From contig JBLNDO010000030.1 in assembly GCA_050261675.1 (NCBI GenBank), forward strand, positions 11,424 through 75,423: DNA of 64,000 bases, read 5' to 3'. This DNA is from Bacillota bacterium. Lineage in GTDB: Bacteria > Pseudomonadota > Gammaproteobacteria > Natronospirales > REEB76. Below are positions 8,367 through 46,098 of this stretch, piece by piece. The translations under genes and the position numbers were made by a program. Numbering within the stretch: the first letter of the stretch is position 1; every line of letters begins with the position of its first letter. Under the pieces are notes generated by a model. It did not search any database and had not been told where the DNA came from. It worked only from the letters and a program-made list of their open reading frames with translations.

Positions 8367-8369
8367 GGC

Positions 8370-9821: not shown

Positions 9822-9822
9822 C

Positions 9823-10482: not shown

Positions 10483-10484
10483 GG

Positions 10485-13435: not shown

Positions 13436-13491
13436 CAGACAGCGCCACCTCGGCGCGCGGAGAACGCGCGCGGCTTGACAGGCCCGTGAAG

Positions 13492-13512
13492 TATTATCAT
13501 CCTATGATAATA
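13492..13512. promoter_or_regulatory. inverted repeat (9-bp arms, 3-bp spacer) in the divergent hyf-like / RHH intergenic region
   Basis: tattatcat-cct-atgataata is the only AT-rich patch in the 97-bp intergenic region. A TTGACA hexamer lies at 13475-13480. Confidence 0.5.
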
Positions 13513-13939: not shown

Positions 13940-14710
13940 TCACGGCGGCGGCGCGATCTCCACGGTCCAGAAATCCCCGGCGAGTTTCGGGTCCGTGAGG
14001 TAGCCATAGGGGAGGTAGAAATAGCCGCCCTGCCCCCACTTCGGACCGTAGGAATTCCTGGCGACGAAGCGCTTCCCGGCATCCTCGTAGCCCACGGCCA
14101 TGACGGCGTGATTGCCGAGCAGCTTCTCCCCCGCTTTCGGGATGGGCGGCATGTCCGCCTGCCGGGCCTCGGGGGTGTCGAAGCTCTCGTAGACGGCGAA
14201 GGCGAAGATGAAGGGCCGGCCGGACGCGAGGCAGGCCTGGAGATGGGCGAGGTCTTGCGCCAAGCGCGCGTAATGGACCTGGCGGTATTTCACCGCAGCC
14301 TTATAACAGCGGGCCGGAGGTTCCACGTCCACCTGGGCGGGGTCGTAGGGCCAGAGGTCCTCGGGACAGTCGCCCTGCTTCGCCAGGGACTTGATGGCTT
14401 CCCGCAGGGGAGCGCCGCCGTCCCGACTCTCGGTGCCGAGCATCCTGCGTTCGTTGTAGTAGATGAAGAGCCGCGAGGGGACGAAGTCCGGCTTGAGCTT
14501 CAGGCGCCGGCGCTCGAACTGGATGGCGCCCGCGGCGGCATTGGCGGTGCAGCTCTGCAGGGGGCGCTGGTCGTAGGCCTGGGGACAGAGGGAGCGGAGG
14601 TCTACGGATGCCGGGCGCTTCTTGAGGAACTCGGCCGGCGGTGCGTAGGCGTGGTCGCGCGCGTCGGGTTTGTCCCGGATACAGCCAAAGTGACGGGCGG
14701 GCTCAGTCAT
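13940..14710 (-). CDS. papain-like C1-family cysteine peptidase, no signal peptide
   Basis: Catalytic-type motifs 'LQSCTANAAA' (Cys), 'GNHAVMAVGY' (His) and 'ARNSYGPKWGQGGYFY' (Asn/Trp). The N-terminal 'DKPDARDHAY' is typical of bacterial C1 peptidases. Confidence 0.8.
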   Translation of the reverse strand: MTEPARHFGCIRDKPDARDHAYAPPAEFLKKRPASVDLRSLCPQAYDQRPLQSCTANAAAGAIQFERRRLKLKPDFVPSRLFIYYNERRMLGTESRDGGAPLREAIKSLAKQGDCPEDLWPYDPAQVDVEPPARCYKAAVKYRQVHYARLAQDLAHLQACLASGRPFIFAFAVYESFDTPEARQADMPPIPKAGEKLLGNHAVMAVGYEDAGKRFVARNSYGPKWGQGGYFYLPYGYLTDPKLAGDFWTVEIAPPP

Positions 14711-14740
14711 GCGCCCATTATAAGGAGAGGCAGGAAGACC

Positions 14741-15928
14741 TTAGATGCCTAATTGCTGTGGGTTGACGCCGTAAGCGCCGTTCTGCAGACAGCGATCGAT
14801 CCAGACACGGCCGCTGTCGGACCAGGCGTTGTCGAACATCATGTCCACCACCGCCGGGTAGGTGAGCGGCTTCTTGGCTTCGTCCAGCACCAGCGCGATG
14901 CGGGGACGGAGCTTCTGCGGGTTCTGGGCCAGCACCACGCCGACCGCGCCGGTGTTGAGTTCGATGACCGAGCCCGTCGGGAAGGCGCCCACCATCTGCA
15001 TGAATTTCTCCACCGCCTCCGTCTGGAACAGCTTGCCGCGCGCGCCGAAGATGAAACGGATCGCCTCGTGGGGCGAGCGTTCGCCGGCGTAGGGCCGGAA
15101 GCTCACCAGCGCGTCGTAGGTGTCCACGATGCCGGCGATCACGGCGTAGAGGGGTATGGACGTGCCCTTCAGCCCGGCGTGGTAGCCGCTGCCGTCGAAG
15201 CGCTCATGGTGGTGCTTGACGAGTTCCATGATGCGCGGGGTGATGCCGTCCATGCCGCGGAGGATCTCGAGACTCTGGCCCACGTGGCCGTGCACCGCCC
15301 GGGTCTCGGCCTCGTTCAGCGGGCCGGGGCGCAGGAGCAGGGTCAGGGGCAGTTGGGTCTTGCCCACGTCGAAAAGCATGCAGCCCAGGCCGACTTCGTG
15401 GATCTCTTCCTTCTCGAGGCCGAGATGGCGCGCGAACGCCAGGCCCCAGATGGAGGTATTGAGGGCGTGGCTGAAGATGTAGGAGTCATGCTGCTTCATG
15501 CGCGTGAGCCAGATGAGCGCATTGGGGTTGCGCAGCATGCTCTCGAGCATGGGGGTGATGGTCTTCCGGGCCAGGTCCACGTCGAGGCGGCCGCTCTGCA
15601 GCATCTGGGTGAAGATGGCCTTGGCGGCGGCGCTGGCGTCGCGGTGGATCTCCTTGGCGCGGACGATCTCCTTCTCGACCGTCTGCGTCACGGGATAGCG
15701 GTCGGGGACGTGGGGCCGGGTGCGGGGGGTCGTGTCTTCGATCCGCTCCGCGTCCACGAACACGTACTGGCAGACGCGCTGCAGTTCTTCGAGGGTCTCC
15801 TGGTTGCGGATGAAGAAACCCTGGTACATGAAGCGCGTGTCGGTCCACGGCCGATCCAGCCGATCGACGTACATGCCGACCTTCAGATCGCCGACGGCAA
15901 GCTTCCTGAGCTTCGAGGTACCTGACAC
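14741..15928 (-). CDS. HD-GYP domain phosphodiesterase with DUF3391-like N-terminus
   Basis: 'HHERFDGSGYHAGL' (HD-GYP), 'MLFDVGK' and 'KVGMYVDRLDRPW'. GTG 15928 has AAGGAG 5 nt upstream; the ORF-track 5' extension to 16096 is Arg/Pro/Gly-rich and was rejected. Confidence 0.8.
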   Translation of the reverse strand: MSGTSKLRKLAVGDLKVGMYVDRLDRPWTDTRFMYQGFFIRNQETLEELQRVCQYVFVDAERIEDTTPRTRPHVPDRYPVTQTVEKEIVRAKEIHRDASAAAKAIFTQMLQSGRLDVDLARKTITPMLESMLRNPNALIWLTRMKQHDSYIFSHALNTSIWGLAFARHLGLEKEEIHEVGLGCMLFDVGKTQLPLTLLLRPGPLNEAETRAVHGHVGQSLEILRGMDGITPRIMELVKHHHERFDGSGYHAGLKGTSIPLYAVIAGIVDTYDALVSFRPYAGERSPHEAIRFIFGARGKLFQTEAVEKFMQMVGAFPTGSVIELNTGAVGVVLAQNPQKLRPRIALVLDEAKKPLTYPAVVDMMFDNAWSDSGRVWIDRCLQNGAYGVNPQQLGI

Positions 15929-16191
15929 CCGCGCTCCTTCGGCACGCACCTCCCTCTCAGGTGCGTCCCACCCGATGGATGCCGGCCCCCCTCGCCGGTC
16001 CAAGCGAACAGGAGTCTGGACCCCTCCGGCTCGCCCCGGCAAGGGCGGACAGGCAGGTAAACACCGGTACTTTGGGTAGGAAACACCTGACGGCACGGCC
16101 GCCCGCGGGAATTTCGCCGCAAATTCAGCGGATTACCGGAAACACCTGGAAAGCTCGTCCGCTGTCACATTCAGCGGAACCGGGCGGCCGC

Positions 16192-17551: not shown

Positions 17552-17590
17552 GAAAAAGACAAGGGGCGGACCGGGTATACGGCCCGCCCC
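17552..17590 (-). terminator. rho-independent terminator downstream of the small peptide gene
   Basis: ggggcggaccg/cggcccgcccc hairpin (10 of 11 bp), followed on the minus strand by cttgtcttttt. Confidence 0.7.
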
Positions 17591-17605
17591 TGCTGTTTAG
17601 CCTGA

Positions 17606-17800
17606 TCAAATACCGATGAAATAGATGGGATAAGCGGTCAACAAGTCAGAGGCGGCATCGCCACCGCTGGTGGTGGAGTTGCCCTGGCCATCCCTACCCG
17701 CGCCAAGGGCCTGGCCACCGGCACCACCGAATCCATACGCAGTGGTCACGCAGCCGAACAACACGATGGCAACCAAGAAAGCCGCGGTGAACTTACGCAT
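17606..17800 (-). CDS. small exported Gly-rich peptide (64-aa precursor, possible lipoprotein)
   Basis: ATG 17800 with strong RBS aaaaagggagtaagg. Signal 'MRKFTAAFLVAIVLFGC' is followed by 'GFGGAGGQALGAGRDGQGNSTTSGGDAASDLL' and a hydrophobic tail 'TAYPIYFIGI'. It lies in a lower-GC region 108 nt downstream of the CHAT gene. Confidence 0.5.
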   Translation of the reverse strand: MRKFTAAFLVAIVLFGCVTTAYGFGGAGGQALGAGRDGQGNSTTSGGDAASDLLTAYPIYFIGI

Positions 17801-17908: not shown

Positions 17909-18560
17909 CTACTGCCCGACCATGACGAAGGCGCCCCAGTAGTACGGCAGGTCCTGGCTGTAACGCGCCTTCACCACCTCCCGCTCCTTGAGTTCCGCCT
18001 GCCTAAGCGCTTCGTGCTTCTCCATGCCGCCCAGCCAGTTGGCGTAGAAGAACTGCATCAGCTCCCGGGTCTCCTGGTCCGGCACGGACCACATGCTCAT
18101 GATCACCGCCTGGGCGCCCGCTTCCTGCAGGGCGCGGTTGAGCCCGAACACGCCCTCGCCGTTCTGGGAGCTGCCCAAGCCGGTGTCGCAGGCGGAGAGC
18201 ACCACGAGTTCGGTGCCTTCGAGGTCGAGCTGCTCCGCCTCGTAGGCGGTGAGCACGCCGTCATCCGCCCCCTCCGGCGACGGGTTGCCGGCGAGCGTGT
18301 TGTCCGCCCCGGCGAAATAGAGCCCGGAGCGCAGCATGGGATCTTCCACGAGATTCTTCTGGTCCGGCAGGAAGAAGCCGTGGGTCGCGATGTGCAGGAG
18401 GCGCGGATGGTGCACGGACTTGATGGCTTCTTCCAGGGCGAGGTCGCTTTGGTAGAGCCGCGCCTGCCACTGCTTGCGGCTGAGGAGAGCGTCGATGCCC
18501 GCCACCTCCTCCGCCGTGCCGGGCAACGGACAGAGGATGCCGGTGTCGGGCAGGGGGCAA
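17909..18560. repeat. high-identity paralogous segment (CHAT-domain 3' end), copy A
   Basis: By eye, about 9 in 10 nt match 21304-21960 over the first ~260 nt. Identity is lower but clear further in. The end point is approximate. Confidence 0.7.
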
Positions 18561-21277
18561 TGGGCCGCTTCGGCGCCGCGCGCGACCGGGATGCTGACTT
18601 GGGTGCGCGCCGCGAGCCGGGTGTCGTTCGTTCCGCCGCCGAGCTTCCCCACCGCGGCGAGGTAATCCGCCGCGGGGAGGTCGAACGAGGGGCCTCCCAT
18701 GAGGACGGCATCCTCGGACGTGGCGCCGGTGACGTGCCGCAGCACGTCCTTGGTGCTGGGGACGATGCGCAGGTCGTAGCGCTCCATGAGGAGCTTGCCG
18801 GCGGGGTCCGGCACGATGCCGAGCGAAGCCTGGTTGAATACGCCGTCCGGCGAGAGGTACACGCGTGTGGCGCCCTTGAGCGCGGGCTCCAACGGCGCCC
18901 AGTAGGCCTCGTAGAACGTGGTCTGGCCCGGAAGCGGGGCGGGGCCGGCCTTGCGCAGGCGCGCGGCGTAGTCCGCCACGGGATCGGACTCGAGGCCGGC
19001 GGCCTTGCCGATGACGATGAACTGCGGCTGGTCGCGGGTCTCGGGCGTCACCACCAGGGCCACGTAGTAGTTCTCGTGGGTGTCGAGCCAGCCCTCCATG
19101 TAGTGGAAGCGCACCACTTCCACCGCGGCCTCGCCGGGTTTGAGCGCATCGCGCACCTGTTGCCAGGTGACGCTCTGCAGCCGCTGGCCCTCGGCCACGG
19201 CGGCGGAGCGCTTGGCGAGCTGCCGCTCTAGGTCGTCGGTGTCCGCCTGCTGCTGTTGCACCTTGGCGAGCCACTGGTCGCGGTCCTGGCCGGGGTTGTT
19301 GAGCAGCGTGGCGAGCTTGGTCTTGCTGGCGCTGAGCTTGTCCAGGAGCGCGAGGGAATCGGGGTCGCCGCTGGAGGCGATCTTGGCCCGGAGCGCGGTG
19401 ATGGTGTTGCCCACGAAACCCTTCTGCCACAGGAGCACGTTGTACATCTTGCCGGCGAGCGCGGGGTCCTGCTCGTGGTATTTCAGGCAGAAACTGTAAT
19501 ACTCGGGGAACCGGTCGGCGATGGAATTGAGGAACTGCAAGCGGTCGCGCTCGTTCATGTAGACGAACTGGCTCTCGAGGTCGTGGTGCAGTTTCTCCAT
19601 GGACGCATCCAGCACCGGAGCCGCCGCCTTGCGGTCACCCATCTGGAACAACAGCATCGAGTACTTGAACTGGACGGTGATGGCCATGGCGCTCTGCTCG
19701 CCGTTGACCTTCATGACCACCGGCAGGGCGCGTTCGAAGAGCGGCCGGGCCTCGGCAAGTCGGTTGTGGAAGGCGTAGAACTCCCCCACATTCACCGATT
19801 GCTGGGCCGTATCGGTCTGGTCCGGACCCAGGGTCTTCATGTCCATGGCCATGGCATCCAGATAGAGTTTCTCCGCTTCCGCCGTGCGGTGTTCGTGGTC
19901 GTAGATGTCCGCCAGGATGTTCATCTGGTGGGCGACCTGGGGATGCACGGGCCCGAGCGTGCGCTGATCCATGGCGAGCGCCTTCTCCGCCAGGTCCTGC
20001 GCCTCCTTCCATTGGGACAGGTTGTTGTAGAGCACCGCCAGGTTGCTGAGCGCGGTGGCGGTATTCGGATGGTCCGGCGGATAGACCTTCTCGAAGATGG
20101 CGATGGTCTGCTGCATGAAGGGAATGGCGTCCTTGACCCGCCCCATCTCCCGGTACAGCACGGCCATGTTGTTGAGGTCGTAGCCGACCTGGATGTCGTC
20201 CTCGCCGCGCACCTTGCGGTCTATCTCCAGGGCGCGGCGGTAAAGCGATTCCGCCCGGTTGTAATCGCCGAACACCTCGTACATGTAGGCGATGCTGCCC
20301 TCCACCTGGCCGACGTTGGCGCTCATCTCGCCCTGGGTCTTGACGTAGACGTCGAGGGATTGCTGGTAATACGGCAGCGCCTTGTTGTAGAGACCCTGGT
20401 CGTCGTAGCTGCGCGCCACGTCGTTGAGCATGTTGGCCACGTCCGGGGTCTCCGGCCCCTGAGCCTCGCGCATGATCTGCAGCGCCCGCAGGAACAAGGG
20501 CTCCGCCTCCGCGGGATGCCCCTCGTTGAGGTCCACATTGCCGAGGTAGTCGATCGCGTAGGCGAGGGCCGGCGTCTGCGGCCTGCCGGGCTTATCCAGG
20601 ATGGCAAGCGCGCGGTTGAGCACCTTGCGCGCACCGGCGTTGTCGCCGTTCACCAGGAGCAAGAGACCCTGGCCGGTGAGGGTTTCCGCCAGGTCCTCCT
20701 GGTCCTTGCCCGGCGCCGTCTCCTGGATCGCCAGCGCACGCTGGTAATCCTGGCTCGCCGCGTCCATCTTGTTGAGGTTGTACTCCACCATGGCGAGGTC
20801 GCCGAGGGTGGCGGCCACCTCCGGGTCCGCCGGGCCCAGGAGCTTCTCCTGGGCAGCGAGCACGGCGGTCAGGTCCTTCTCCGCATCTTCGAACCGTCCC
20901 TGGCTCGACTCGGCCCGGGCGATGAGCCGCTGACCCATGGCCGCTTCGGCGCTCCCGGCACCGTGGCGCTTCTGTTCGAGATTGAGCGCCAGGCGGAAAT
21001 AGCTCTCCGCCTCGGGGTAGTTGCCCACGTCGAGCTCGGCCGCCGCCAGGTCGTTCAGGGCTTCGGTCATCTCCGCCGAATCCGCCGGAAGGGTCTTCTG
21101 GGCCGCGGCATATTCGTCTTTCGCCGCCGCGAGAGCGGGCACGAACTGGGCCTTATCCTCCAGGGCCTGGCGCTTGGCTTGCAGCGTCTTCCAGCCGGCC
21201 GGCGCGGGGGGCGCCGAGGCGCAGGCGGCGAGCGCGGCAAGAGCGAGCAGGACGGAAACCGGACGTGGGAGTTTCAT
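17909..21277 (-). CDS. lipoprotein TPR-repeat CHAT-domain (caspase-like) peptidase, paralog 2
   Basis: ATG 21277 with GGAGGGG RBS and signal plus lipobox 'LALAALAAC|A'. About 550 aa of TPR repeats precede a C-terminal CHAT domain with 'HIATHGFF' and 'VLSACDTGLG' (Cys codon 18188-18190). Confidence 0.85.
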   Translation of the reverse strand: MKLPRPVSVLLALAALAACASAPPAPAGWKTLQAKRQALEDKAQFVPALAAAKDEYAAAQKTLPADSAEMTEALNDLAAAELDVGNYPEAESYFRLALNLEQKRHGAGSAEAAMGQRLIARAESSQGRFEDAEKDLTAVLAAQEKLLGPADPEVAATLGDLAMVEYNLNKMDAASQDYQRALAIQETAPGKDQEDLAETLTGQGLLLLVNGDNAGARKVLNRALAILDKPGRPQTPALAYAIDYLGNVDLNEGHPAEAEPLFLRALQIMREAQGPETPDVANMLNDVARSYDDQGLYNKALPYYQQSLDVYVKTQGEMSANVGQVEGSIAYMYEVFGDYNRAESLYRRALEIDRKVRGEDDIQVGYDLNNMAVLYREMGRVKDAIPFMQQTIAIFEKVYPPDHPNTATALSNLAVLYNNLSQWKEAQDLAEKALAMDQRTLGPVHPQVAHQMNILADIYDHEHRTAEAEKLYLDAMAMDMKTLGPDQTDTAQQSVNVGEFYAFHNRLAEARPLFERALPVVMKVNGEQSAMAITVQFKYSMLLFQMGDRKAAAPVLDASMEKLHHDLESQFVYMNERDRLQFLNSIADRFPEYYSFCLKYHEQDPALAGKMYNVLLWQKGFVGNTITALRAKIASSGDPDSLALLDKLSASKTKLATLLNNPGQDRDQWLAKVQQQQADTDDLERQLAKRSAAVAEGQRLQSVTWQQVRDALKPGEAAVEVVRFHYMEGWLDTHENYYVALVVTPETRDQPQFIVIGKAAGLESDPVADYAARLRKAGPAPLPGQTTFYEAYWAPLEPALKGATRVYLSPDGVFNQASLGIVPDPAGKLLMERYDLRIVPSTKDVLRHVTGATSEDAVLMGGPSFDLPAADYLAAVGKLGGGTNDTRLAARTQVSIPVARGAEAAHCPLPDTGILCPLPGTAEEVAGIDALLSRKQWQARLYQSDLALEEAIKSVHHPRLLHIATHGFFLPDQKNLVEDPMLRSGLYFAGADNTLAGNPSPEGADDGVLTAYEAEQLDLEGTELVVLSACDTGLGSSQNGEGVFGLNRALQEAGAQAVIMSMWSVPDQETRELMQFFYANWLGGMEKHEALRQAELKEREVVKARYSQDLPYYWGAFVMVGQ

Positions 21278-21303
21278 GGACCCCTCCACAAAGCATCAAT
21301 TCA

Positions 21304-21960
21304 TCAACGCCCCACCATGACGAAGGCGCCCCAGTAATACGGCAGGTCCTGGCCGTAACGCGCCTTCACCACTTCCCGCTCCTTGAGTTCCGCCTGCCTC
21401 AAGGCCTCGTGCTTCTCCATGCCGCCCAGCCAGTTCGCGTAGAAGAGCTGCATCAGTTCCCGGGTCTCCTGGTCCGGCACGGACCACATGCTCATGACCA
21501 CCGCCTGGGCACCCGCTTCCTGCAGGGCGCGGTTGAGCCCGAACACGCCCTCGCCGTTCCCGGCACTGGTGCCCAAGCCCGTGTCGCAGGCGGAGAGCAC
21601 CACGAGTTCGGTGCCCTCGAGATCGAGCTGCGCCGCCTCGTAGGCGGTGAGCACGCCGCTGTCAGCTCCCGCCGGCGGCGGGTTGCCAGCGAGCGCGTTG
21701 TCGGCTCCAGCGAAGTATAGGCCGGAGCGCAGCATGGGGTCTTGCCTCACTCTCCGTTGGTCCGGCAGAAAGAACCCGTGGGTGGCGATGTGCAGGAGCC
21801 GCGGATGGTGCGCGGCTTGGATGGCTTCCTCCAGGCCCTGTTCACCTTGATATAAAGACGCCTGCCATTGTTTACGCGTCAGCAAGCCGTCGATGTCGCT
21901 CACTTCCTGCGCCGCACCCGGCAAGGGACAGAGGATACCGGTGTCGGGCAGGGGACATTT
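21304..21960. repeat. high-identity paralogous segment (CHAT-domain 3' end), copy B
   Basis: Direct repeat of 17909-18560, same orientation, 3.4 kb apart. The end point is approximate. Confidence 0.7.
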
Positions 21961-24675
21961 GCCGCCGGCGGATAGATCCCGCGCCACCGGCAGCCCTGCG
22001 CCGCGGATGCCGGCGTAGCGTGTCTCCGCCGCGCCGGGAACGTTCAATTTGGCCACGGCGGCGAGATACCGATCCGGCTTGAGATCGAACGCCGGCCCGC
22101 CCAACAGCACCGCCGTATCCGAAGCGGTCGCCGGTGGGGCGCGCAGCACGTCGCGGGTGCTGGGCACGATGCGCAAATCATAGCGCTCCATCAGGAGCCT
22201 GCCCTGCTCGTCGGGGACGATGCCCAACGAAGCCTGGTTCAAGATGCCATCAGGGGACAGATAAACCCGGGTGGTGCCCTTCAGCGCGGGCTCCAGCGGT
22301 TTCCAGAACGCCTGGTAGAAGCTGGTCTTGGAAGTCGCGGCCGTAGTGCCAAACTTGCTCAGGCGGGCGGCGTAATCCGCTACGGGTCCCGACTCCAGGT
22401 CTTCGGCCTTGCCCACCACGATGAACTCGGGGGCATCCCGGGTCTCGTGCGTCAGCACCAATGCGACGTAATAGTCAGTCTTGGTGTGACCAGTTCCGTT
22501 GAGATAGTTGAAATGGGCGAACTCCACCGCGGCCTCGCCGGGTTTGAGTCCCTTCTGCACATCGCGCCAACTGATCTTCTCCAGGGACTGCTCCCGTGTG
22601 AAGCTCTGGGAGCGCGCCAGCAGCTGCTGTTCGACCCCATCTGTCTCTGCCTGCAGCTGGCTCACCTGGGACTCCCATTGGGCGTGGTCGTCTCCCGGGT
22701 TGTTGAGCAGTTGCGCGAGCTTGGCCTTGAGGTCGCCCAACCGTCCCAGCAGGGAGACCGCCTCGGCATCGCCGCTCGCGGCGATCTTGGCCCGGAGCGC
22801 CGCGATGCTGTTGCCCACCAGGCCCTTCTGCCACAACAGGATGTCGTACATCTTGGCGGCAAGCGCAGGGTCTTCCGCGTGATAATCGAGACAGAAACTG
22901 AAATACGTTGGAAACGCGTCCTTGCTGCGCGCGAGAAGCTGCAGGCGGTCGCTCTCCTTCATGTATCGGTACTGGGCCAGGAAGAACGCGTGCATGATGT
23001 CGAAATAGTCGTCGAACAGCGGGCTAGCGCCCTTGCGGTCACCGGCATGGAAGCGTTCGACCGCCCAGTCGAATTCAAGATCGGCGATGTTGGAATGGCG
23101 CGGTCCGTAGGTTTTCTTGAATATCGCCAGCGCGGCGGGGTAGCGCGCCTCCGCCTCGGAAAACTTGCTTTCCAAGTTGAGCAGGTTAGCAAGGTTCTGC
23201 GAATATTGGGCCGTCATCGCGTGTTCCGGTCCCAGGGTCTTCAGCGTGATGGCGTAAGCCTTCCTGTACAGCGCTTCCGCATCGGCGTACTTGTGTTCCC
23301 CTTCGTAGGCTTCCGCCAGGTTGTTGTACCAGGTGGCGAGCGCAGGATCGTCCGGACTCAAGGTCTTCTCGCCGATGGCGATCACCTGCGTGAAATAGGG
23401 CACAGACTCTGAGTACTTCTCTTCTTCGGTGTACAACTCGCCGATGTTATTCAGCACGGTGAGCACGTAGGTGTGGTCCGGTGGCAGGAGCTTCTGGAAT
23501 ATGGCCAAGGCCTGCTGCAACAGCGCTTCAGCCTGCTCATTCTGGCCGAGGAGCCGGTATAGCTGGGCGTAGTTGTTGTAATCGAAAGCCATGTTGATGC
23601 GATCGTGGGTCCAGCTGTGGCTGTCGATGTCTATGGCGCGCTTGAAGTTAGCCTCCGCTTGCTGGTACTCCCCGGTGTTGTCCTGCATCTGGGCAAGATT
23701 CCCCGTGATGCTTCCGAGATTGACGTTGTCCGCGCCCAGGGCACGGGTGTAGGTGGCGATGGAGCGGTTGTAATAATCCTCGGCCTGCGGGTAATGGCCT
23801 TCGTCGTCGTAGGTGCGGGCGATGTCGTTCTGCGCGTTCGCCACGTTCTGATGGTCAGGGCCGAAGAGCTGGGTATACATGTCCAGGCAGCGCCGGAACT
23901 TGGGCTCCGCGTCCGGGAAGTGACTGCGGTCCAGGTCCACGTTACCCGAGAGGTCGAGGGCCTCCGCCAGCTCCGGCCGGTCCCCGGCGCCGGATACGTC
24001 CATGATCGCGAGGGAGCGCTGCGCCGTCTTCTCCGCGCCGTCATCATCGCCGCTCATGATGGAGAGATACGCGGATTGGTTCAGCGTGAAGGCCAGGTCC
24101 CGCTTCCCGGGCCCGGGGTGCTGCTCGCGTATGGCGAGCGCCCGGTCGAGGATTTGCCGGGCGGTATCGTTGTCGTTGTAGTCCGCCAAGGCACGCCCGT
24201 AATCCGTGAGCGTGAGACCCAGGGCCGGATCGTCCTTGGGCAAAAGTCTTTCCTGGATCGCGAGCGCCGCCTTGTATCCCTCGAGCGCGGCAGGCAGGTC
24301 TCCCGTCAGGTGGATGTTCCGCGCCAGCCCCTCCTGCACCTCGGCGGCTTGCGGGCTTTCCGCACCGAACTTCGCCTTGCGGATGTCCAGGGCCCGCCGG
24401 TAGTGCGCGGCGGCGTCCGTGTATGCGCCGGTCTCGCGTTCCACATAGGCGAGATCCATGAGCGCCGTTGAGAGCTCAGGAGAATCCGCGGGCAGGGTTT
24501 TTTCGGCGGCGGCCAATTCCTGCTGTGCGGATTTCAGCGCATCGCGGAAGCGGGCGGCCTCCACGCTCTTTGCCGTCTCGGCCTGGTAGGCATGCCAGTC
24601 GTCCGCGGGTTTGGGTGCGTTCGCAGCACAAGCGGCGACGATAACCACGCCGGCGACGGCGGAAAGGCGCTTCAT
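21304..24675 (-). CDS. lipoprotein TPR-repeat CHAT-domain (caspase-like) peptidase, paralog 1
   Basis: Signal plus lipobox 'VVIVAAC|A'. TPR repeats precede a C-terminal CHAT domain with 'HIATHGFF' and 'VLSACDTGLG' (Cys codon 21586-21588). Confidence 0.85.
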   Translation of the reverse strand: MKRLSAVAGVVIVAACAANAPKPADDWHAYQAETAKSVEAARFRDALKSAQQELAAAEKTLPADSPELSTALMDLAYVERETGAYTDAAAHYRRALDIRKAKFGAESPQAAEVQEGLARNIHLTGDLPAALEGYKAALAIQERLLPKDDPALGLTLTDYGRALADYNDNDTARQILDRALAIREQHPGPGKRDLAFTLNQSAYLSIMSGDDDGAEKTAQRSLAIMDVSGAGDRPELAEALDLSGNVDLDRSHFPDAEPKFRRCLDMYTQLFGPDHQNVANAQNDIARTYDDEGHYPQAEDYYNRSIATYTRALGADNVNLGSITGNLAQMQDNTGEYQQAEANFKRAIDIDSHSWTHDRINMAFDYNNYAQLYRLLGQNEQAEALLQQALAIFQKLLPPDHTYVLTVLNNIGELYTEEEKYSESVPYFTQVIAIGEKTLSPDDPALATWYNNLAEAYEGEHKYADAEALYRKAYAITLKTLGPEHAMTAQYSQNLANLLNLESKFSEAEARYPAALAIFKKTYGPRHSNIADLEFDWAVERFHAGDRKGASPLFDDYFDIMHAFFLAQYRYMKESDRLQLLARSKDAFPTYFSFCLDYHAEDPALAAKMYDILLWQKGLVGNSIAALRAKIAASGDAEAVSLLGRLGDLKAKLAQLLNNPGDDHAQWESQVSQLQAETDGVEQQLLARSQSFTREQSLEKISWRDVQKGLKPGEAAVEFAHFNYLNGTGHTKTDYYVALVLTHETRDAPEFIVVGKAEDLESGPVADYAARLSKFGTTAATSKTSFYQAFWKPLEPALKGTTRVYLSPDGILNQASLGIVPDEQGRLLMERYDLRIVPSTRDVLRAPPATASDTAVLLGGPAFDLKPDRYLAAVAKLNVPGAAETRYAGIRGAGLPVARDLSAGGKCPLPDTGILCPLPGAAQEVSDIDGLLTRKQWQASLYQGEQGLEEAIQAAHHPRLLHIATHGFFLPDQRRVRQDPMLRSGLYFAGADNALAGNPPPAGADSGVLTAYEAAQLDLEGTELVVLSACDTGLGTSAGNGEGVFGLNRALQEAGAQAVVMSMWSVPDQETRELMQLFYANWLGGMEKHEALRQAELKEREVVKARYGQDLPYYWGAFVMVGR

Positions 24676-24692
24676 AACAAGCTACGCTGCGC

Positions 24693-25478
24693 TCAGGGCG
24701 AGGGGCTGGCGCGCAGGTGCTCCGCCTGGGCGAAGTCGGCGTCCGCGTCGCCTTGCGTCACGGGAAGCTGCGCGAACAGCGTGCCGCGGCCCTCGTAAAG
24801 CTCGGCACGCGCGGGGTACTTCTGCATCAGGCGGGTGTAGGCGCTCACGGCATCGTACCAGAGGCGCGCGTCGGTGTAGATGCGCGCCTTGGCGAGGTCG
24901 GCAGCGTAGGCGTCCGTATCCTTTACGGCGGCGAGCTTGTCCGCCACGGCCTTGCGCGGATCGCCCGCCACCACTTCGAAGCCCACCGGCGCAGACTGCT
25001 GGTTGCCGGACATGCTGGGTGGCGTCTCCACCGTCCAGAAATAGGTCTTGCCGGGCTCGAGCTTGGGCGCAGTCTCAGGATAATGGAAACGGTAACCCTT
25101 CACCTCGGTGTGAAACAGGGATTTCTGGTTGTCGTCCCACAGGGTGAAGACGTAGCTCCCGCCGCCGCCAGCGTCGCTCCAATAGAATTCCGGCAGGTTG
25201 TCGTAGAGCTTGCCCAGGTGCGGCGCGAGGGCGACCGGCGCCGCGCCCTCGCCGCGGGACGCACCGGCGGCCATGGCCTGCTTCTTGAGGGCATCCTTGT
25301 CCACAAGGTCGAAACCCGAGAGCACCGTCACCACGCGCGGCCGCTTGGCGGCGGCGGGTTTGACGGAGGTGCCGGCCGAGGCCGCCTTCGCCGCCGTGGA
25401 GGCGGCGGGCGCCGCGCGCAAGCCGGAGGCGGCACAAAGACCCAGAATCGCGGACAGGATCACGAGACGACGCAACAT
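24693..25478 (-). CDS. exported DUF928-like protein with TPR-like C-terminal tail
   Basis: ATG 25478 with RBS gaaggggaggg and signal 'MLRRLVILSAILGLCAASGLRA|A'. The core 'LPEFYWSD...YVFTLWDD...LEPGKTYFWTVE' matches my recollection of the DUF928 pattern. The tail is 'ARIYTDARLWYDAVSAYTRLMQKYP'. Confidence 0.55.
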   Translation of the reverse strand: MLRRLVILSAILGLCAASGLRAAPAASTAAKAASAGTSVKPAAAKRPRVVTVLSGFDLVDKDALKKQAMAAGASRGEGAAPVALAPHLGKLYDNLPEFYWSDAGGGGSYVFTLWDDNQKSLFHTEVKGYRFHYPETAPKLEPGKTYFWTVETPPSMSGNQQSAPVGFEVVAGDPRKAVADKLAAVKDTDAYAADLAKARIYTDARLWYDAVSAYTRLMQKYPARAELYEGRGTLFAQLPVTQGDADADFAQAEHLRASPSP

Positions 25479-25501
25479 CGACTTACCCTCCCCTTCAGAA
25501 A

Positions 25502-27382
25502 TCATTCGTGGGAATCGCTCCCCACCACAGTATAGACCCGGATCTTGCCCTCGAAACCACGCACGGCCGCCTCACCGAGGTCACGCGTCCGGAAGCGCCC
25601 ACGCACCAGGGCTTCGGTGTCCGCGGTGAGTATGACGGGCACGTGAAATTCCTTGGTGAGGCTCTCCAGGCGCGAGGCCAGGTTCACGGCGGCGCCGATC
25701 ACGGAGTATTCGAGGCGCGTGCGTGAGCCCACGTTACCGGCAGTCACCCGGCCGCTGTGGATGCCGATGCCGATCTTAATTTCCGGGAAGCGCGCATCGC
25801 CCCGGTGCTTGCGGTTCCACTCTTCCACCCGCTCCAGCATGCGCAACGCAGTATCCAGCGCATGGGTGGCATCTTCGGCCTGGCTCGCGCTCAGCGGCAC
25901 GCCGAACAGCACCATGATGCCGTCGCCGATAAACTTGTTGAGAAAGCCGTGCTGCTCCTCGATGACGGCGCTCATCTCCGTGAGGTAGTCGTTGAGCCAG
26001 AACAGCACCTCGCCCGGCGGCTTGCCGGCCGTGATGGCGGTGAAATTGCGGATATCGGTGAACATCACCGTCGCCTCGCGCTCCTCGCCGGCGAGCGTGA
26101 TCTCCCCGCGACGCTTCCAGATCTCGGCCGCGGCCTCCGGCGAGACGTAGCGGGAGAACAGGCCCATGAGTTCGCCGCGCTCCCGCTCGGCACGGCCCTT
26201 GAGCCAGCGTTCCTCCGCGAAGCGGAAGCCGAAGCCCGCAGGCAGGCTCAAGACGAACGCGAGCTCCGCCAGCACGAAGGGCTGCCAGATGCGGCCGAAG
26301 GCATACAGGCCCCAGGCGATGGCGAAGGCCGTGAGCATGAGCAGCAACACGCCCGGCAGGCTCCAACGCGGCGGCGCCAGCACGATGAGCAACAAGGCCA
26401 GGGCGAGATAGATTCCCGCGATCACCAACGCCTCGGCCAGCGGCATCACCTGGATGGCGGAGCCGTCCAGCAGGGTCTGGATGGCCGCCGCCTGCACCAG
26501 TGTTCCGGGCATCTGATGCCGCTCTCCTTCTGCATCGCGGAAGCGGAACTGGGGCGTGAAATGCAGGTCGTTGCCGGCGGTGCTGCTCTGGCCGAGGAGC
26601 ACGATCTTGTCTGCGAACGACGCGCCCGGCACGCGGCCGGCGAGCACCTCGCCGGCGGGTATGACCTCTGGCCGGGAGGCGGGCCAGTTGATGAGCGCGG
26701 TGCGCAGGGGGCCGCCGTCGAAGACGGTGCGTGCCTTGCCGATGCATACCGCGTCTGCGCCGCAGGGCGTGGGCGGCGCCCGCAGGCGGTTCGCCGCCAC
26801 CGCCACCGGGAATGGCAGCGCGGGGTAGCCCTTGGGCGGCAAGAGGAACAGGCGGCGCACGAAGCCGTCGTCGTCCACCGGCATGTTGATGAAGCCGGCG
26901 GCGAAGGCACTGCCTTCCTTGCAGTTGGATGGATTCGCCGGATCCAGGACGCAATAGTCCGGTAGAGGCTCGTTCACCGGCATGTTGTCGGTGCCGAGCT
27001 GGGTCGTGACGATGACGTTGCCGGCCGCCGCCATGGCGGCGGCGAGGCGCTTGTCCTCTTCCGGCGCGCGCCGCTCGGAGAGCAGGAGGTCGAAGCCGAT
27101 CAGGTCCGGGCGGCCGGCCGCCACCTTCTCCACTACCTCCGCCACCACGCCGCGGGGGACGGGAAAGGCACGCAGCTGTTGGAGCAGCGCGTTGTCGAAG
27201 TCCACCACCACGATGTCCGCGCGCGGGGCGGCGCGGGACCCGGTGTGTACCAACAGGTCATAGCCGGAGGCTTCCAGGTCCCGGACGGCGGCGCTGCCGG
27301 AAAGCAGCGCGAGCAGGCCCGAGAGCAGCGGCACGGCCGCCGCCACGAACAGATACTTGAGGGAGCCCTGCTTGAGCTTCAC
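25502..27382 (-). CDS. CHASE2 sensor-domain class III adenylate/guanylate cyclase
   Basis: N-terminal TM, then a CHASE2-like ectodomain ('DIVVVDFDNALL..FPVPRGVVAEVV..PDLIGFDLLLSE'). Three TM helices and a cyclase domain follow ('ATVMFTDIRNFT', 'FLNKFIGDGIMVLFGVP', 'GAAVNLASRLES'). GTG start 27382. Confidence 0.85.
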   Translation of the reverse strand: MKLKQGSLKYLFVAAAVPLLSGLLALLSGSAAVRDLEASGYDLLVHTGSRAAPRADIVVVDFDNALLQQLRAFPVPRGVVAEVVEKVAAGRPDLIGFDLLLSERRAPEEDKRLAAAMAAAGNVIVTTQLGTDNMPVNEPLPDYCVLDPANPSNCKEGSAFAAGFINMPVDDDGFVRRLFLLPPKGYPALPFPVAVAANRLRAPPTPCGADAVCIGKARTVFDGGPLRTALINWPASRPEVIPAGEVLAGRVPGASFADKIVLLGQSSTAGNDLHFTPQFRFRDAEGERHQMPGTLVQAAAIQTLLDGSAIQVMPLAEALVIAGIYLALALLLIVLAPPRWSLPGVLLLMLTAFAIAWGLYAFGRIWQPFVLAELAFVLSLPAGFGFRFAEERWLKGRAERERGELMGLFSRYVSPEAAAEIWKRRGEITLAGEEREATVMFTDIRNFTAITAGKPPGEVLFWLNDYLTEMSAVIEEQHGFLNKFIGDGIMVLFGVPLSASQAEDATHALDTALRMLERVEEWNRKHRGDARFPEIKIGIGIHSGRVTAGNVGSRTRLEYSVIGAAVNLASRLESLTKEFHVPVILTADTEALVRGRFRTRDLGEAAVRGFEGKIRVYTVVGSDSHE

Positions 27383-27431
27383 GCCGGTACCCCATGCCGG
27401 GACGCGGCCCCATTATGCCGGGGACCGGACG

Positions 27432-27460
27432 CCTATATATAGGTATCTATATATGTATGC
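27432..27460. promoter_or_regulatory. AT-rich palindromic patch upstream of the CHASE2 operon (putative promoter/operator)
   Basis: cctatatatagg (perfect 12-bp palindrome, 27432-27443) followed by tatctatatatgtatg. This is the only AT-rich sequence in the 79-bp gap between 27382 and 27462. Confidence 0.45.
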
Positions 27461-27461
27461 G

Positions 27462-37085: not shown

Positions 37086-37304
37086 TATCCCTGGCCTGAG
37101 GGGGAAGCGCTCCAGCCCGCGGGAAAGTATAGACCTCCCGTCCGGCCCCCACGGCCGGGAGCCCGGATTCCATCGACCCAAATACGTGCGCCCGGCACTG
37201 GACATAAGCACCCCGAATCTGCACACTGCGCCCGGACTTCTTGGCAATCAGGGTCGGATCCGGAACCCCGCTTGAAGACGGGACGGGAGAGACCGGGAGA
37301 CGTG

Positions 37305-45893: not shown

Positions 45894-46051
45894 TCGCTAA
45901 AGACACAGCCCTCACCCATTGCCGCTACCTGGCCTTGAGGAGGTTTTTGACTTGCCCCGCCTCCGAAAAGCGGGAAAACACGTAATAAATACGTCGAAGG
46001 GCGGGTATTAGACCGGCAGGGACAGCCGGGGTCAAGGGGTTTGGCTGTTTT

Positions 46052-46081
46052 TTGACTTCCCGCCCGTGCCGCCACTACCCT
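46052..46081 (+). promoter_or_regulatory. possible sigma70-type promoter for egtB
   Basis: TTGACT (46052-46057), an 18-nt spacer, then TACCCT (46076-46081). The GAGGAG RBS is at 46087-46092. The -10 is weak. Confidence 0.3.
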
Positions 46082-46098
46082 GCCTTGAGGAGCTGCGC

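What the first reader, a model, noticed from the sequence alone, without database searches (positions are those of the whole stretch)
17909..27460. CHASE2-cyclase / DUF928-like / twin lipoprotein TPR-CHAT operon: candidate uncharacterised extracytoplasmic protease-coupled cyclic-nucleotide signalling system
**Four tightly spaced co-directional genes** (gaps of 23, 17 and 26 nt):
1. A CHASE2 ectodomain sensor fused through three TM helices to a class III nucleotidyl cyclase.
2. A signal-peptide protein with a DUF928-like core and a TPR-like tail.
3. and 4. Two ~1120-aa paralogs. Each has a lipoprotein signal (VAAC|A, LAAC|A; Ala at +2), ~550 aa of TPR repeats and a C-terminal CHAT domain with an intact caspase-type dyad (HIATHGFF; VLSACDTG).

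**Why it is unusual.** CHAT proteases studied so far (HetF, type III CRISPR-associated TPR-CHAT, gasdermin activators) act in the cytoplasm. Here everything except the cyclase domain is predicted to face the periplasm.

**Working model.** Regulated extracytoplasmic proteolysis acts on the DUF928-like protein, on the downstream Gly-rich peptide or on an external target. The CHASE2 domain, whose ligand class is unknown, reads this out and converts it into a cNMP signal.

**Prior knowledge.** I recall CHASE2, DUF928 and CHAT genes being neighbours in cyanobacterial annotations, but I know of no experimental characterisation and cannot verify this here.
Basis: partly seen in the sequence, partly recalled or inferred. 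Interest (0 to 1): 0.85.

Follow-up and report, generated by a model that had tools for sequence, protein, structure and literature searches.

The report
Envelope sensor operon with exported proteases
Four co-directional genes encode a membrane sensor that probably makes cyclic AMP, a small periplasmic partner protein and two lipid-anchored caspase-like proteases; the same gene trio recurs in soil Acidobacteria and cyanobacteria, and I found no experimental test of what it senses.

Summary
On the minus strand at 27382-17909 lie a CHASE2 class III cyclase, a DUF928 protein and two 1120-aa TPR-CHAT paralogs. Gaps are 23, 17 and 26 nt. The only strong terminator follows the cluster.

Export signals are supported by conservation. 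Nearly all full-length relatives of the CHAT proteins carry N-terminal signal peptides.

The interpretation needs re-weighting.
- **Conserved core:** CHASE2 plus DUF928. They are adjacent in 32 of 35 species loci, and in 12 of 17 cyanobacterial plasmid loci, whatever cytoplasmic module CHASE2 carries.
- **Optional third part:** exported CHAT is directly adjacent in 9 of 35 species loci, and near DUF928 in 12 of 17 cyanobacterial loci.
- **Not conserved:** the Gly-rich peptide.

The DUF928 model is an FN3-like sandwich plus a TPR-like helical domain. Its best solved match is MtxA, a secreted protein that is itself encoded next to a CHASE2 adenylate cyclase.

Most likely this is an envelope-spanning relay: lipoprotein TPR-CHAT, then the DUF928 adaptor, then the CHASE2 receptor, then cAMP. 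Proteolysis of DUF928 is plausible but unshown.

I rate it a new variant of a known kind, of moderately high interest.

The parts
27383..27461 (-). Intergenic leader between the upstream beta-propeller gene and G1. It is an AT-rich island holding the perfect palindrome CCTATATATAGG (27443-27432) and a repeated TATATAG. Candidate promoter or operator.
   Evidence: Read directly from the sequence. The consensus sigma-70 scan did not call it. Function is inferred only.
25502..27382 (-). G1: CHASE2 receptor fused to a class III nucleotidyl cyclase, probably an adenylyl cyclase. Layout: TM1, periplasmic CHASE2, three TM helices, cytoplasmic cyclase.
   Evidence: Pfam CHASE2 2e-42 and Guanylate_cyc 9e-28. 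Four hydrophobic segments and four ectodomain Cys. Best solved match is P. aeruginosa CyaB, E=5e-33, with metal-binding Asp, Lys (NKFIGDG), Ser (EYSVIG), Asn and Arg in place. Ectodomain AlphaFold2 model has pLDDT 92.8.
24693..25478 (-). G2: secreted DUF928 protein. Order of parts: signal peptide; Pro/Ala/Lys-rich linker; conserved but poorly ordered motif R-x-R-V-V-T-x-L-S-G-F-D-L ... G-A-S/T-R-G ... A-L-A-P-x-L-G-K-L-Y; FN3-like beta-sandwich; five-helix TPR-like tail with RLWYDA.
   Evidence: Pfam DUF928, 40.3 bits against a cut-off of 26. Alignment A1. AlphaFold2 model with pLDDT above 90 for residues 80-257. Foldseek best hit is MtxA 4z29, E=7e-7.
21304..24675 (-). G3: lipoprotein TPR-CHAT protease (lipobox VAAC|A, kinesin-light-chain-type TPR array, conserved middle domain, CHAT with His962/Cys1030).
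   Evidence: Pfam; catalytic motifs; His and Cys invariant in A2; TPR best solved matches are kinesin light chains.
17909..21277 (-). G4: paralog of G3 (lipobox LAAC|A). Identity to G3: CHAT 78%, middle domain 56%, TPR array 39%.
   Evidence: Pfam; region-wise identity. Both paralogs are closest to the single CHAT of L007, at 74% and 71%, so the duplication is recent.
17606..17800 (-). Small ORF (64 aa, MRKFTAAFLVAIVLFGC..., lipobox LFGC, Gly-rich). It has a Shine-Dalgarno-like GGGAG upstream. Doubtful as a part of the system.
   Evidence: Sequence. No homolog in any of 121 related loci.
17562..17591 (-). Intrinsic-terminator-like hairpin (12-bp stem, 10 G-C pairs, T tract) that probably ends the transcription unit.
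   Evidence: Terminator scan.

Best explanation
This operon most likely encodes an envelope-spanning sensory relay that ends in cAMP synthesis.

**Proposed parts**
- G1 is the inner-membrane receiver. Its periplasmic CHASE2 domain controls a cytoplasmic class IIIb-type adenylyl cyclase.
- G2 (DUF928, an FN3-like sandwich plus TPR-like helices) is the dedicated periplasmic partner of the CHASE2 domain. It acts as a co-receptor or adaptor. I infer that CHASE2 is switched by this protein contact rather than by a free small molecule.
- G3 and G4 are lipid-anchored, exported TPR-CHAT cysteine proteases. By the E. coli +2 rule they would sit in the outer membrane. They form an optional input layer.

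**Proposed sequence of events**
1. The diverged peptide-binding TPR arrays of G3 and G4 recognise different envelope or external protein cues.
2. The CHAT domain then acts on G2, most plausibly in its conserved, flexible, Arg-containing N-terminal segment, or on a G2-bound substrate.
3. This changes the G2-CHASE2 contact and hence cyclase activity.

**Status of each step**
- Shown: domain content, export signals, intact catalytic residues, and conserved adjacency across two phyla.
- Inferred: the physical G2-CHASE2 contact, the direction of signalling, and outer-membrane sorting.
- Speculative: cleavage of G2 by CHAT.
For: **Domains and topology.**

**CHASE2-DUF928 pairing**
- Adjacent in 32 of 35 species-representative loci.
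- The pairing persists when the cyclase is replaced by a PP2C/SpoIIE phosphatase.
- In cyanobacterial plasmids it also persists with CHAT/caspase-like, TIR, histidine-kinase or AAA_35 modules, or with no extra domain. The tie is therefore to the sensor domain and not to the output.
- Over 28 loci, DUF928 distances track CHASE2-ectodomain distances (r=0.89, Spearman 0.84). They track the cyclase domain of the same protein less well (r=0.79, Spearman 0.54). Partial r is 0.73 against 0.38. DUF928 and CHASE2 evolve at the same rate, twice that of the cyclase.

**MtxA.** The DUF928 model's best solved match is MtxA. MtxA is secreted, has a trypsin-labile N-terminal part, and is encoded next to a CHASE2 adenylate cyclase (PMC4439547).

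**Link to CHAT**
- CHAT is the immediate neighbour in 9 of 35 species loci, in three different arrangements and with several CHAT subfamilies.
- It lies near DUF928 in 12 of 17 cyanobacterial loci, 4 of which have no CHASE2 gene annotated within the flank inspected.
- CHASE2/DUF928 is the most frequent recurrent neighbour of this CHAT family: 11 of 80 loci, against 5 for the next neighbour cluster.

**Export of CHAT**
- Signal peptides occur on nearly all full-length family members.
- One cyanobacterial neighbour of DUF928 is a fusion of a TPS secretion domain, TPR repeats and CHAT.

**Precedent.** S. meliloti CHASE2 cyclases need the outer-membrane protein NsrA and respond to a protein signal (PMC13001267, PMC7529298).
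Against: - No experiment bears on any step.
- CHAT is missing from about two thirds of CHASE2-DUF928 loci in Acidobacteriota.
- About 85% of sampled homologous TPR-CHAT genes have no CHASE2 or DUF928 nearby, though many of those contigs are short.
- The conserved N-terminal DUF928 motif is equally conserved without a neighbouring CHAT. It need not be a cleavage site.
- The mirror-tree signal can be inflated by the slower, less informative cyclase domain.
- MtxA is not detected by the DUF928 sequence profile, and its deletion gave no phenotype under standard conditions.
- No cNMP-binding effector or phosphodiesterase was found among the roughly 27 larger ORFs scanned in the window.
- No complex prediction could be run.
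- The +2 sorting rule is an E. coli rule.
Confidence: 0.5

Rival explanations
1. Only G1 and G2 form the sensor. The two TPR-CHAT genes are members of a very large family of exported proteases, used for envelope protein turnover or nutrient acquisition. They merely share the transcription unit.
For: - The C-terminal half of G3 has more than 3400 homologs with E <= 0.001.
- 69 of 80 CHAT-centred loci show no CHASE2 or DUF928.
- In the window's CHAT subfamily, linked and unlinked members are interspersed.
- 23 of 32 CHASE2-DUF928 species loci have no adjacent CHAT.
Against: - Immediate adjacency recurs in two phyla, with at least three gene orders and with distinct CHAT subfamilies.
- In cyanobacteria DUF928 keeps a CHAT neighbour even where no CHASE2 gene is annotated in the flank (L127, L137, L139, L140).
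- No other neighbour family of these CHAT genes recurs as often.
Confidence: 0.22
2. The module is a conflict or defence system. CHASE2 detects an attack at the envelope (phage, toxin, competitor), the cyclase emits an alarm nucleotide, and the CHAT proteases are effectors. This would resemble the caspase-based systems described in multicellular bacteria.
For: - Cyanobacterial versions sit on plasmids beside TIR, Trypco2, AAA-like and caspase-CHASE2 genes.
- Such caspase-CHASE2 proteins, often with an ECF sigma factor and DUF1822, were described among apoptosis and immunity systems (PMC8195603).
- The G1 cyclase domain matches Pycsar cyclase models.
Against: - The Pycsar match is generic class III homology. 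No cNMP-binding effector gene was found near the operon.
- The cyclase has the Lys of adenylyl cyclases.
- The CHAT proteins are exported, so they cannot kill from inside.
- The window neighbourhood is ordinary chromosomal housekeeping.
Confidence: 0.12
3. CHASE2 binds a diffusible small molecule directly. DUF928 is only a structural accessory, for example a folding or stability factor for the ectodomain. CHAT processes other exported proteins, such as adhesins or TpsA-like proteins, unrelated to signalling.
For: - CHASE2 has been described as a small-molecule receptor domain (PMC8195603).
- Nine of 17 cyanobacterial loci add two-partner-secretion genes that could be the CHAT substrates.
- The DUF928 sandwich also occurs as tandem repeats in giant proteins.
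Against: - No ligand for CHASE2 is known.
- The only characterised CHASE2 pathway responds to a protein through an outer-membrane partner (PMC7529298).
- The window and the acidobacterial loci contain no TPS, ShlB or DUF1822 genes.
- DUF928 and CHASE2 co-vary.
Confidence: 0.14

Closest known systems
Sinorhizobium meliloti CHASE2 adenylate cyclases CyaD1/CyaD2/CyaK with the outer-membrane protein NsrA (PMC13001267, PMC7529298)
   Same: An inner-membrane CHASE2 class III cyclase. Its activation depends on a separate envelope protein located outside the inner membrane. The signal is of protein nature. The output is cAMP.
   Different: The partner there is a roughly 1200-aa beta-barrel outer-membrane protein. 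It is not a 26-kDa DUF928 protein, and no CHAT protease is involved. The downstream Crp-like regulator Clr is known there, whereas none is identified here.
MtxA and the adjacent CHASE2 adenylate cyclase of magnetotactic bacteria (structure 4Z29; PMC4439547)
   Same: A secreted protein with an Ig/FN3-like sandwich packed on a five-helix TPR-like domain and a protease-labile N-terminal part. It is encoded next to a CHASE2 adenylate cyclase. It is the best structural match of the G2 model.
   Different: No sequence-level match to the DUF928 profile. The gene order is reversed (mtxA first). No CHAT neighbour is reported. The deletion had no phenotype and the function is unknown.
EACC2-caspase-CHASE2 proteins with an ECF sigma factor and DUF1822 (Kaur et al. 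2021, PMC8195603), and the cyanobacterial plasmid clusters seen here
   Same: A CHASE2 sensor next to DUF928 and an exported TPR-CHAT. All three occur together in 8 of 17 plasmid loci examined.
   Different: There the cytoplasmic module is a CHAT/caspase-like domain, TIR, histidine kinase or AAA-like ATPase, not a cyclase. Two-partner-secretion genes, DUF1822 and a sigma factor are added. The paper does not mention DUF928.
LysM-FecR protein with a CHASE2 histidine kinase in Burkholderia (PMC5192318), and the Campylobacterota cluster of CHASE2 cyclase, phosphodiesterase, FecR outer-membrane protein and TPR protein (PMC9239204)
   Same: A CHASE2 sensor gene is paired with a gene for an exported accessory protein. 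In Campylobacterota a TPR protein also accompanies a CHASE2 cyclase.
   Different: The accessory domain is FecR rather than DUF928. There is no CHAT protease.
Characterised CHAT proteases: HetF, the type III-E CRISPR TPR-CHAT (Csx29) and gasdermin-activating CHAT proteases
   Same: A clan CD His/Cys dyad. TPR repeats are fused N-terminally to CHAT in Csx29.
   Different: Those act in the cytoplasm. G3, G4 and their whole subfamily carry export signals. The profile search against solved structures listed only TPR-repeat matches among its 60 best hits and no CHAT protease.
NlpI-Prc and LbcA-CtpA: TPR lipoprotein adaptors for periplasmic proteases (from my own knowledge)
   Same: A lipid-anchored TPR module that selects substrates for a periplasmic protease.
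   Different: There the TPR adaptor and the serine protease are separate proteins acting on cell-wall hydrolases. Here TPR is fused to a cysteine protease and linked to a signalling receptor.

Membership tests
CHASE2-domain transmembrane receptors (PF05226) | CHASE2 domain above the curated score, flanked by one N-terminal and several C-terminal TM helices, with a cytoplasmic output domain after them | tested here: met
   146 bits against a cut-off of 26.3. Hydrophobic segments at 11-29, 318-336, 344-362 and 368-386. The cyclase lies C-terminal to them.
Class III adenylyl cyclases (PF00211), subclass IIIb-like | Two metal-binding Asp, a substrate-specifying Lys with Thr/Ser (Asp in IIIa), and transition-state Asn and Arg | tested here: met
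   Alignment to P. aeruginosa CyaB 3r5g, E=5e-33. Residues seen: FTD, NKFIGDG, EYSVIG (Thr in CyaB), VNLASR. Nucleotide specificity is inferred from these residues and was not measured.
DUF928 (PF06051) | Score above the Pfam gathering threshold; secreted; motif G-[GA]-[ST]-R-G ... L-x-A-L-x-P before a beta-sandwich | tested here: met
   40.3 bits against a cut-off of 26. Homologs carry precomputed PF06051. The motif is shared with annotated cyanobacterial DUF928 proteins.
MtxA-like proteins | Sequence homology to MtxA | tested here: not met
   The A1 profile does not retrieve 4z29 even at E <= 10.
MtxA-like proteins | Ig-like sandwich plus five-helix TPR-like domain; signal peptide; neighbouring CHASE2 cyclase gene | tested here: met
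   Foldseek E=7e-7, TM-score 0.66 normalised to the target. The genomic context of mtxA is taken from PMC4439547 and was not re-examined in sequence data.
CHAT peptidases (PF12770, clan CD) | CHAT domain above threshold with the catalytic His and Cys conserved | tested here: met
   212 and 208 bits. His in ATHG and Cys in LSAC are invariant. Protease activity was not tested.
Bacterial lipoproteins | An n-region, an h-region and a lipobox [LVI][ASTVI][GAS]C within the first ~35 residues | tested here: met
   G3 has VAAC at Cys16 and G4 has LAAC at Cys19, judged by manual pattern. No SignalP or LipoP was available. Outer-membrane sorting from Ala at +2 cannot be tested with these tools.
Pycsar anti-phage system | A cyclase plus an adjacent effector with a cNMP-binding domain | tested here: not met
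   Only generic PycC cyclase matches. No effector or cNMP-binding gene was found near the operon.
EACC2-caspase-CHASE2 / ECF sigma / DUF1822 systems | A cytoplasmic caspase-like domain fused to CHASE2, with neighbouring DUF1822 and sigma factor genes | tested here: not met
   G1 carries a cyclase and no caspase domain. No DUF1822 homolog occurs in the window or the acidobacterial loci.
NsrA-dependent CHASE2 cyclase signalling | A FecR/beta-barrel outer-membrane partner gene | tested here: not met
   No ShlB-type or TPS homolog was detected in the window or related loci, and no FecR domain in the ORFs scanned around the operon. FecR was not searched for specifically across the whole window.

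The most novel reading that the evidence does not exclude
CHASE2 domains in general would not be small-molecule receptors. They would be the inner-membrane receivers of an extracytoplasmic protein relay. In that relay, exported caspase-like CHAT proteases act on DUF928/MtxA-type adaptors, and the adaptor state is what CHASE2 reads. This would be a periplasmic 'caspase-type' signalling cascade. It could be plugged into cAMP, PP2C partner switching, TIR, histidine kinases or cytoplasmic caspases, depending on the lineage.
Probability: 0.2. Interest if true: 0.85.

Novelty: new variant of a known kind. Interest (0 to 1): 0.62.

Why it matters
**An open question about CHASE2.** CHASE2 was defined in 2003 (cited as Zhulin et al., 2003 in PMC8195603 and PMC4439547). 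It occurs on cyclases, kinases, phosphatases and death-type effectors. No ligand appears in the literature I could search, and I found no solved structural match. The only studied pathway, in S. meliloti, points to a protein signal relayed by an envelope partner.

**What this analysis adds.**
- A small secreted protein, DUF928, follows the CHASE2 domain across two phyla and at least six output types. MtxA may be its alphaproteobacterial counterpart.
- Exported CHAT proteases are its recurrent third partner.
- Together these give a concrete hypothesis for how CHASE2 is switched, testable by binding, cleavage and cAMP read-out.

**What it would mean for CHAT.** It would move caspase-like CHAT proteases, so far studied inside the cell, into the cell envelope.

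**Why this version is convenient.** The acidobacterial-type version has an easily measured cAMP output, which makes it the simplest form of the system to reconstitute.

Tried and rejected
- **Gly-rich peptide as a system part: rejected.** No homolog in 121 loci. The nearest relative L007 goes straight from CHAT to the MFS gene.
- **Upstream beta-propeller gene as a part: rejected.** Found only in the identical contig.
- **Pycsar or another defence system: rejected.** Only generic matches.
- **DUF928 profile against solved sequences:** only generic TPR hits; MtxA not found.
- **CHAT profile against solved sequences:** only TPR-repeat proteins, led by kinesin light chains, among the 60 best hits.
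- **tblastn of G2 against plasmids:** no match. The cyanobacterial loci were reached through CHAT and then through a Nostoc DUF928.
- **A common neighbour of 'orphan' TPR-CHAT genes:** none recurs in more than 5 of 80 loci.
- **TPS, ShlB and DUF1822 in acidobacterial loci:** none.
- **A cNMP-binding effector or phosphodiesterase near the operon:** none found.
- **The N-terminal DUF928 motif as a CHAT-specific cleavage site:** not supported. It is equally conserved without a neighbouring CHAT.
- **Complex prediction:** not possible.

Full report
**1. What is in the sequence**

The window is about 66% G+C. Four long ORFs lie head to tail on the minus strand between 27382 and 17909.

- G1: CHASE2 (E=2e-42) plus Guanylate_cyc (E=9e-28).
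- G2: DUF928 (40.3 bits, cut-off 26).
- G3 and G4: TPR_12/TPR_10 arrays plus CHAT (E about 1e-62).

With the starts MLRRL (G2) and MKLPRP (G4), the gaps are 23, 17 and 26 nt, as reported.

The only strong terminator-like hairpin on this strand (12-bp stem, T tract) is at 17591-17562, after a small downstream ORF. The 79-nt leader upstream of G1 is a conspicuous AT-rich island with the palindrome CCTATATATAGG. The layout fits one transcription unit. Co-transcription itself is inferred.

**2. Topology and catalytic competence**

G1 has four hydrophobic segments: 11-29, 318-336, 344-362 and 368-386. It has a Lys-rich N-terminus and an Arg/Lys-rich stretch after the last segment. This places CHASE2 outside and the cyclase inside. 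The ectodomain has four Cys.

The cyclase aligns best to P. aeruginosa CyaB (3r5g, E=5e-33). It keeps both metal-binding Asp, the Lys of NKFIGDG, a Ser where CyaB has Thr, and the Asn and Arg of VNLASR. From established knowledge of class III cyclases, this predicts an active adenylyl cyclase of the IIIb type. Specificity was not measured.

G3 and G4 start with lipoboxes (VAAC|A, LAAC|A). They carry HIATHGFF and VLSACDTG at identical positions. The His and Cys are invariant in the family alignment.

G2 has a cleavable-looking signal peptide. Its single Cys is not in a good lipobox and is not conserved in orthologs.

**3. Export of the CHAT proteins is a family trait**

The C-terminal half of G3 has more than 3400 homologs with E <= 0.001, the best at about 50% identity and mostly from Acidobacteriota-type metagenomes. 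Full-length members begin with a hydrophobic signal followed by A-Q-Q or A-Q-E.

In 87 ORFs from 121 loci, essentially every non-truncated member shows such a signal. A few, like the window's, have lipoboxes. The other CHAT subfamilies found next to CHASE2-DUF928, and the eight cyanobacterial ones, show signals too.

In Acaryochloris the protein next to DUF928 is a fusion of a TPS secretion domain, TPR repeats and CHAT. It is a two-partner-secretion passenger.

The window also encodes an AsmA-like outer-membrane assembly protein. The organism is therefore diderm, despite the 'Bacillota' label of the public record.

**4. Conservation in the closer relatives**

A pattern scan of one genome per GTDB species found 35 loci of this DUF928 subfamily. 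Nearly all come from Acidobacteriota MAGs. One MAG is labelled Gammaproteobacteria (L007, 69% identity) and one Dormibacterota. Iterated profile searches of six-frame ORFs gave these counts:
- A CHASE2 gene lies immediately upstream of DUF928 in 32 of 35 loci.
- The output is a cyclase in 27.
- The output is a PP2C/SpoIIE phosphatase in 5.
- Two of the three remaining loci, L023 and L030, were checked and have unrelated neighbours.
- A complete TPR-CHAT gene is the immediate neighbour (gap of 611 bp or less) in 9 of 35 loci. One further TPR ORF is cut by a contig end.

The CHAT neighbour occurs in three arrangements: upstream co-directional, downstream co-directional and downstream convergent.

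In the roughly 616 kb of these loci, no second CHASE2 gene and no non-adjacent CHAT gene were seen. This serves as an internal background.

The converse sample was 80 metagenome loci centred on homologs of G3 (909 kb in all, median 9.5 kb). CHASE2 and/or DUF928 occurred in 11 of them, 9 within 1 kb. No other neighbour family recurs in more than 5 loci.

**5. The same trio in cyanobacteria**

tblastn of the CHAT domain against PLSDB plasmids led to Nostoc punctiforme pNPUN01. There, a WD40-TPR-CHAT lipoprotein, a Trypco2 protein, a CHAT-CHASE2 fusion and a DUF928 protein are consecutive. The Nostoc DUF928 then found 30 cyanobacterial plasmids.

I inspected 17 annotated loci:

| Feature near DUF928 | Loci (of 17) |
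|---|---|
| CHASE2 protein | 12 |
| Exported CHAT protein | 12 |
| Both | 8 |
| At least one | 16 |
| Two-partner-secretion genes (TPS domain, ShlB/FhaC) | 9 |
| CHAT annotated but no CHASE2 in the flank | 4 |

The CHASE2 proteins next to DUF928 carry a CHAT/caspase-like domain, three TIR domains, a histidine kinase, an AAA_35 ATPase, or nothing. Adding the cyclase and PP2C forms gives six different cytoplasmic modules behind one constant pair. DUF928 is therefore tied to the sensor domain.

Because CHAT accompanies DUF928 in four loci where no CHASE2 gene is annotated, DUF928 looks like the hub between the two.

**6. What DUF928 is**

The alignment shows this order of parts:
- a signal peptide;
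- a low-complexity Pro/Ala/Lys linker;
- a strongly conserved segment, R-x-R-V-V-T-x-L-S-G-F-D-L ... G-A-[ST]-R-G ... A-L-A-P-x-L-G-K-L-Y;
- a beta-rich core;
- a helical tail with RLWYDA.

The G-x-[ST]-R-G, L-x-A-L-x-P and LWYDA elements are shared with cyanobacterial DUF928 proteins.

The AlphaFold2 model (pLDDT above 90 for residues 80-257) is an FN3-like sandwich packed on five TPR-like helices. Residues 1-76 are of low confidence.

The best solved match is the C-terminal domain of MtxA (4z29; Foldseek E=7e-7). Generic FN3 and TPR proteins follow. According to its structure paper (PMC4439547):
- MtxA has a signal peptide.
- It has an Ig-like plus TPR architecture.
- Its N-terminal ~140 residues are trypsin-labile.
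- Its deletion had no phenotype under standard conditions.

The DUF928 sequence profile does not detect MtxA. I therefore treat MtxA as a structural and contextual counterpart, possibly a very remote homolog.

An exhaustive profile search found 5136 cluster representatives at E <= 0.001 and 632 at E <= 1e-10. Among them are giant proteins with up to 33 tandem copies of the sandwich.

**7. CHASE2 itself and co-variation**

The ectodomain model is confident (pLDDT 92.8, pTM 0.92). It has no significant match among solved structures (best E=0.15).

Results over 28 loci:

| Comparison | Pearson r | Spearman | Partial r |
|---|---|---|---|
| DUF928 vs CHASE2 ectodomain | 0.89 | 0.84 | 0.73 |
| DUF928 vs cyclase domain of the same protein | 0.79 | 0.54 | 0.38 |

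DUF928 and CHASE2 also evolve at the same rate (mean distance about 1.05), twice that of the cyclase (0.52).

This is what co-adapting partners would show. A slow domain gives a weaker correlation for trivial reasons, so I count it as supportive only.

**8. The twin proteases**

G3 and G4 are 78% identical in CHAT, 56% in the middle domain and 39% in the TPR array. Both are closest to the single CHAT of the nearest relative L007. The duplication is therefore recent and was followed by divergence of the recognition module.

Their TPRs are of the kinesin-light-chain type. From established knowledge, such TPRs bind short linear peptide motifs. The conserved, flexible N-terminal segment of DUF928 would be a fitting ligand. 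This is inference only.

**9. Most likely mechanism**

I propose an envelope-spanning relay:
1. Lipid-anchored TPR-CHAT proteins sense or capture protein cues through their TPR arrays.
2. They act on the periplasmic adaptor DUF928.
3. DUF928 contacts the CHASE2 ectodomain.
4. The cyclase converts this into cAMP.

My confidence differs by step:
- About 0.8 that G1 and G2 are functional partners.
- About 0.55 that the CHAT proteins belong to the same pathway.
- About 0.2 that cleavage of DUF928 is the actual signal. The Arg-containing loop is attractive for a clan CD protease, but it is conserved in loci without CHAT.

The rivals are set out separately:
- independent neighbouring proteases;
- a conflict system;
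- a small-molecule sensor with a passive accessory protein.

**10. Comparison with what is known, and novelty**

- **Nearest functional precedent:** S. meliloti CyaD1/D2/CyaK, which need the outer-membrane protein NsrA and respond to a protein signal (PMC13001267, PMC7529298).
- **Nearest structural and contextual precedent:** MtxA.
- **Accessory FecR proteins** accompany CHASE2 kinases in Burkholderia (PMC5192318) and CHASE2 cyclases in Campylobacterota, where a TPR protein is also present (PMC9239204).
- **Caspase-CHASE2 fusions** with an ECF sigma factor and DUF1822 were catalogued by Kaur et al. (PMC8195603), without DUF928.
- **DUF928** appears in a single paper of the searchable library, as a neighbour of CHASE2 in N. 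punctiforme (PMC5587647).

No paper was found that links CHASE2, DUF928 and exported CHAT as a system, or that tests it. The library omits most subscription journals.

I therefore file the locus as a new variant of a known kind. The known kind is a CHASE2 receptor cyclase with an envelope partner. The new element is the DUF928 adaptor with exported CHAT lipoproteases.

**11. Limits**

- All functional statements are inferences from sequence, models and gene neighbourhoods.
- The surveys are samples, capped at 35, 80 and 17 loci. They are not exhaustive statistics.
- Many metagenome contigs are short.
- Plasmid gene tables are incomplete.
- Signal peptides were judged by hand.
- No complex prediction could be run.

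Noticed in passing
window 27432-27456: An AT-rich island in a 66% G+C genome, just upstream of G1: CATATATAGATACCTATATATAGG, with the perfect palindrome CCTATATATAGG and a repeated TATATAG. It could be a promoter or a regulator binding site.
   Followed up: partly
window 17606-17800 (minus strand): A 64-aa ORF with a Shine-Dalgarno-like GGGAG, lipobox LFGC, a Gly-rich middle and a hydrophobic tail, followed by a strong terminator. It looks like a real small lipoprotein gene but is absent from all related loci, including the closest relative.
   Followed up: yes
whole window; public record of P0001/P0241: The identical proteins are deposited under 'MAG: Bacillota bacterium'. However, the window encodes lipoproteins and an AsmA-like outer-membrane assembly protein (50334-52376). 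Its closest locus is from a MAG labelled Gammaproteobacteria, and more distant homologs are Acidobacteriota. The taxonomic label is probably wrong.
   Followed up: partly
window 6828-13501 (minus strand): A hydrogenase-4 / formate-hydrogenlyase-like membrane complex: HyfB-like and HyfF-like subunits and a NuoD-like large subunit.
   Followed up: no
window 13943-16132 (minus strand): A papain-family cysteine protease ORF (Peptidase_C1, E=1.5e-8), and an ORF with a partial match (77.9 bits, cut-off 400) to a response-regulator c-di-GMP phosphodiesterase model. They lie just downstream of the MFS gene that follows the operon.
   Followed up: no
window 36015-39317 (+) and 53868-55787 (-): An 1101-aa GGDEF-EAL protein and a multi-PAS histidine kinase. 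The region is rich in signalling genes.
   Followed up: no
window 46012-47352 (+): An EgtB (ergothioneine biosynthesis) homolog that passes the NCBIfam cut-off (545 bits against 360).
   Followed up: no
proteins P0294, P0334, P0338, P0393 and others: The beta-sandwich of DUF928 (profile positions about 95-170) occurs as 8 to 33 tandem copies in giant proteins of 1000-5000 aa. It is therefore also a repeat module of large, probably surface, proteins.
   Followed up: no
L139 6720-11990 (Acaryochloris marina plasmid pREC3): A 1756-aa protein combines an N-terminal TPS (two-partner secretion) domain with TPR repeats and a C-terminal CHAT domain. It lies directly after a DUF928 gene. This is a secreted passenger protein carrying a caspase-like protease.
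   Followed up: partly
L138 2645-5794 (Kovacikia minuta plasmid pB): A protein with three TIR domains fused to a C-terminal CHASE2 domain, divergent from a DUF928 gene. Here an envelope sensor is wired to an NAD-cleaving-type effector domain.
   Followed up: no
L003/L009, L038, L040, L039/L041: Several CHASE2 or DUF928 genes in long-read MAG contigs appear split over two or three frames. These are probably frameshift sequencing errors rather than pseudogenes.
   Followed up: no
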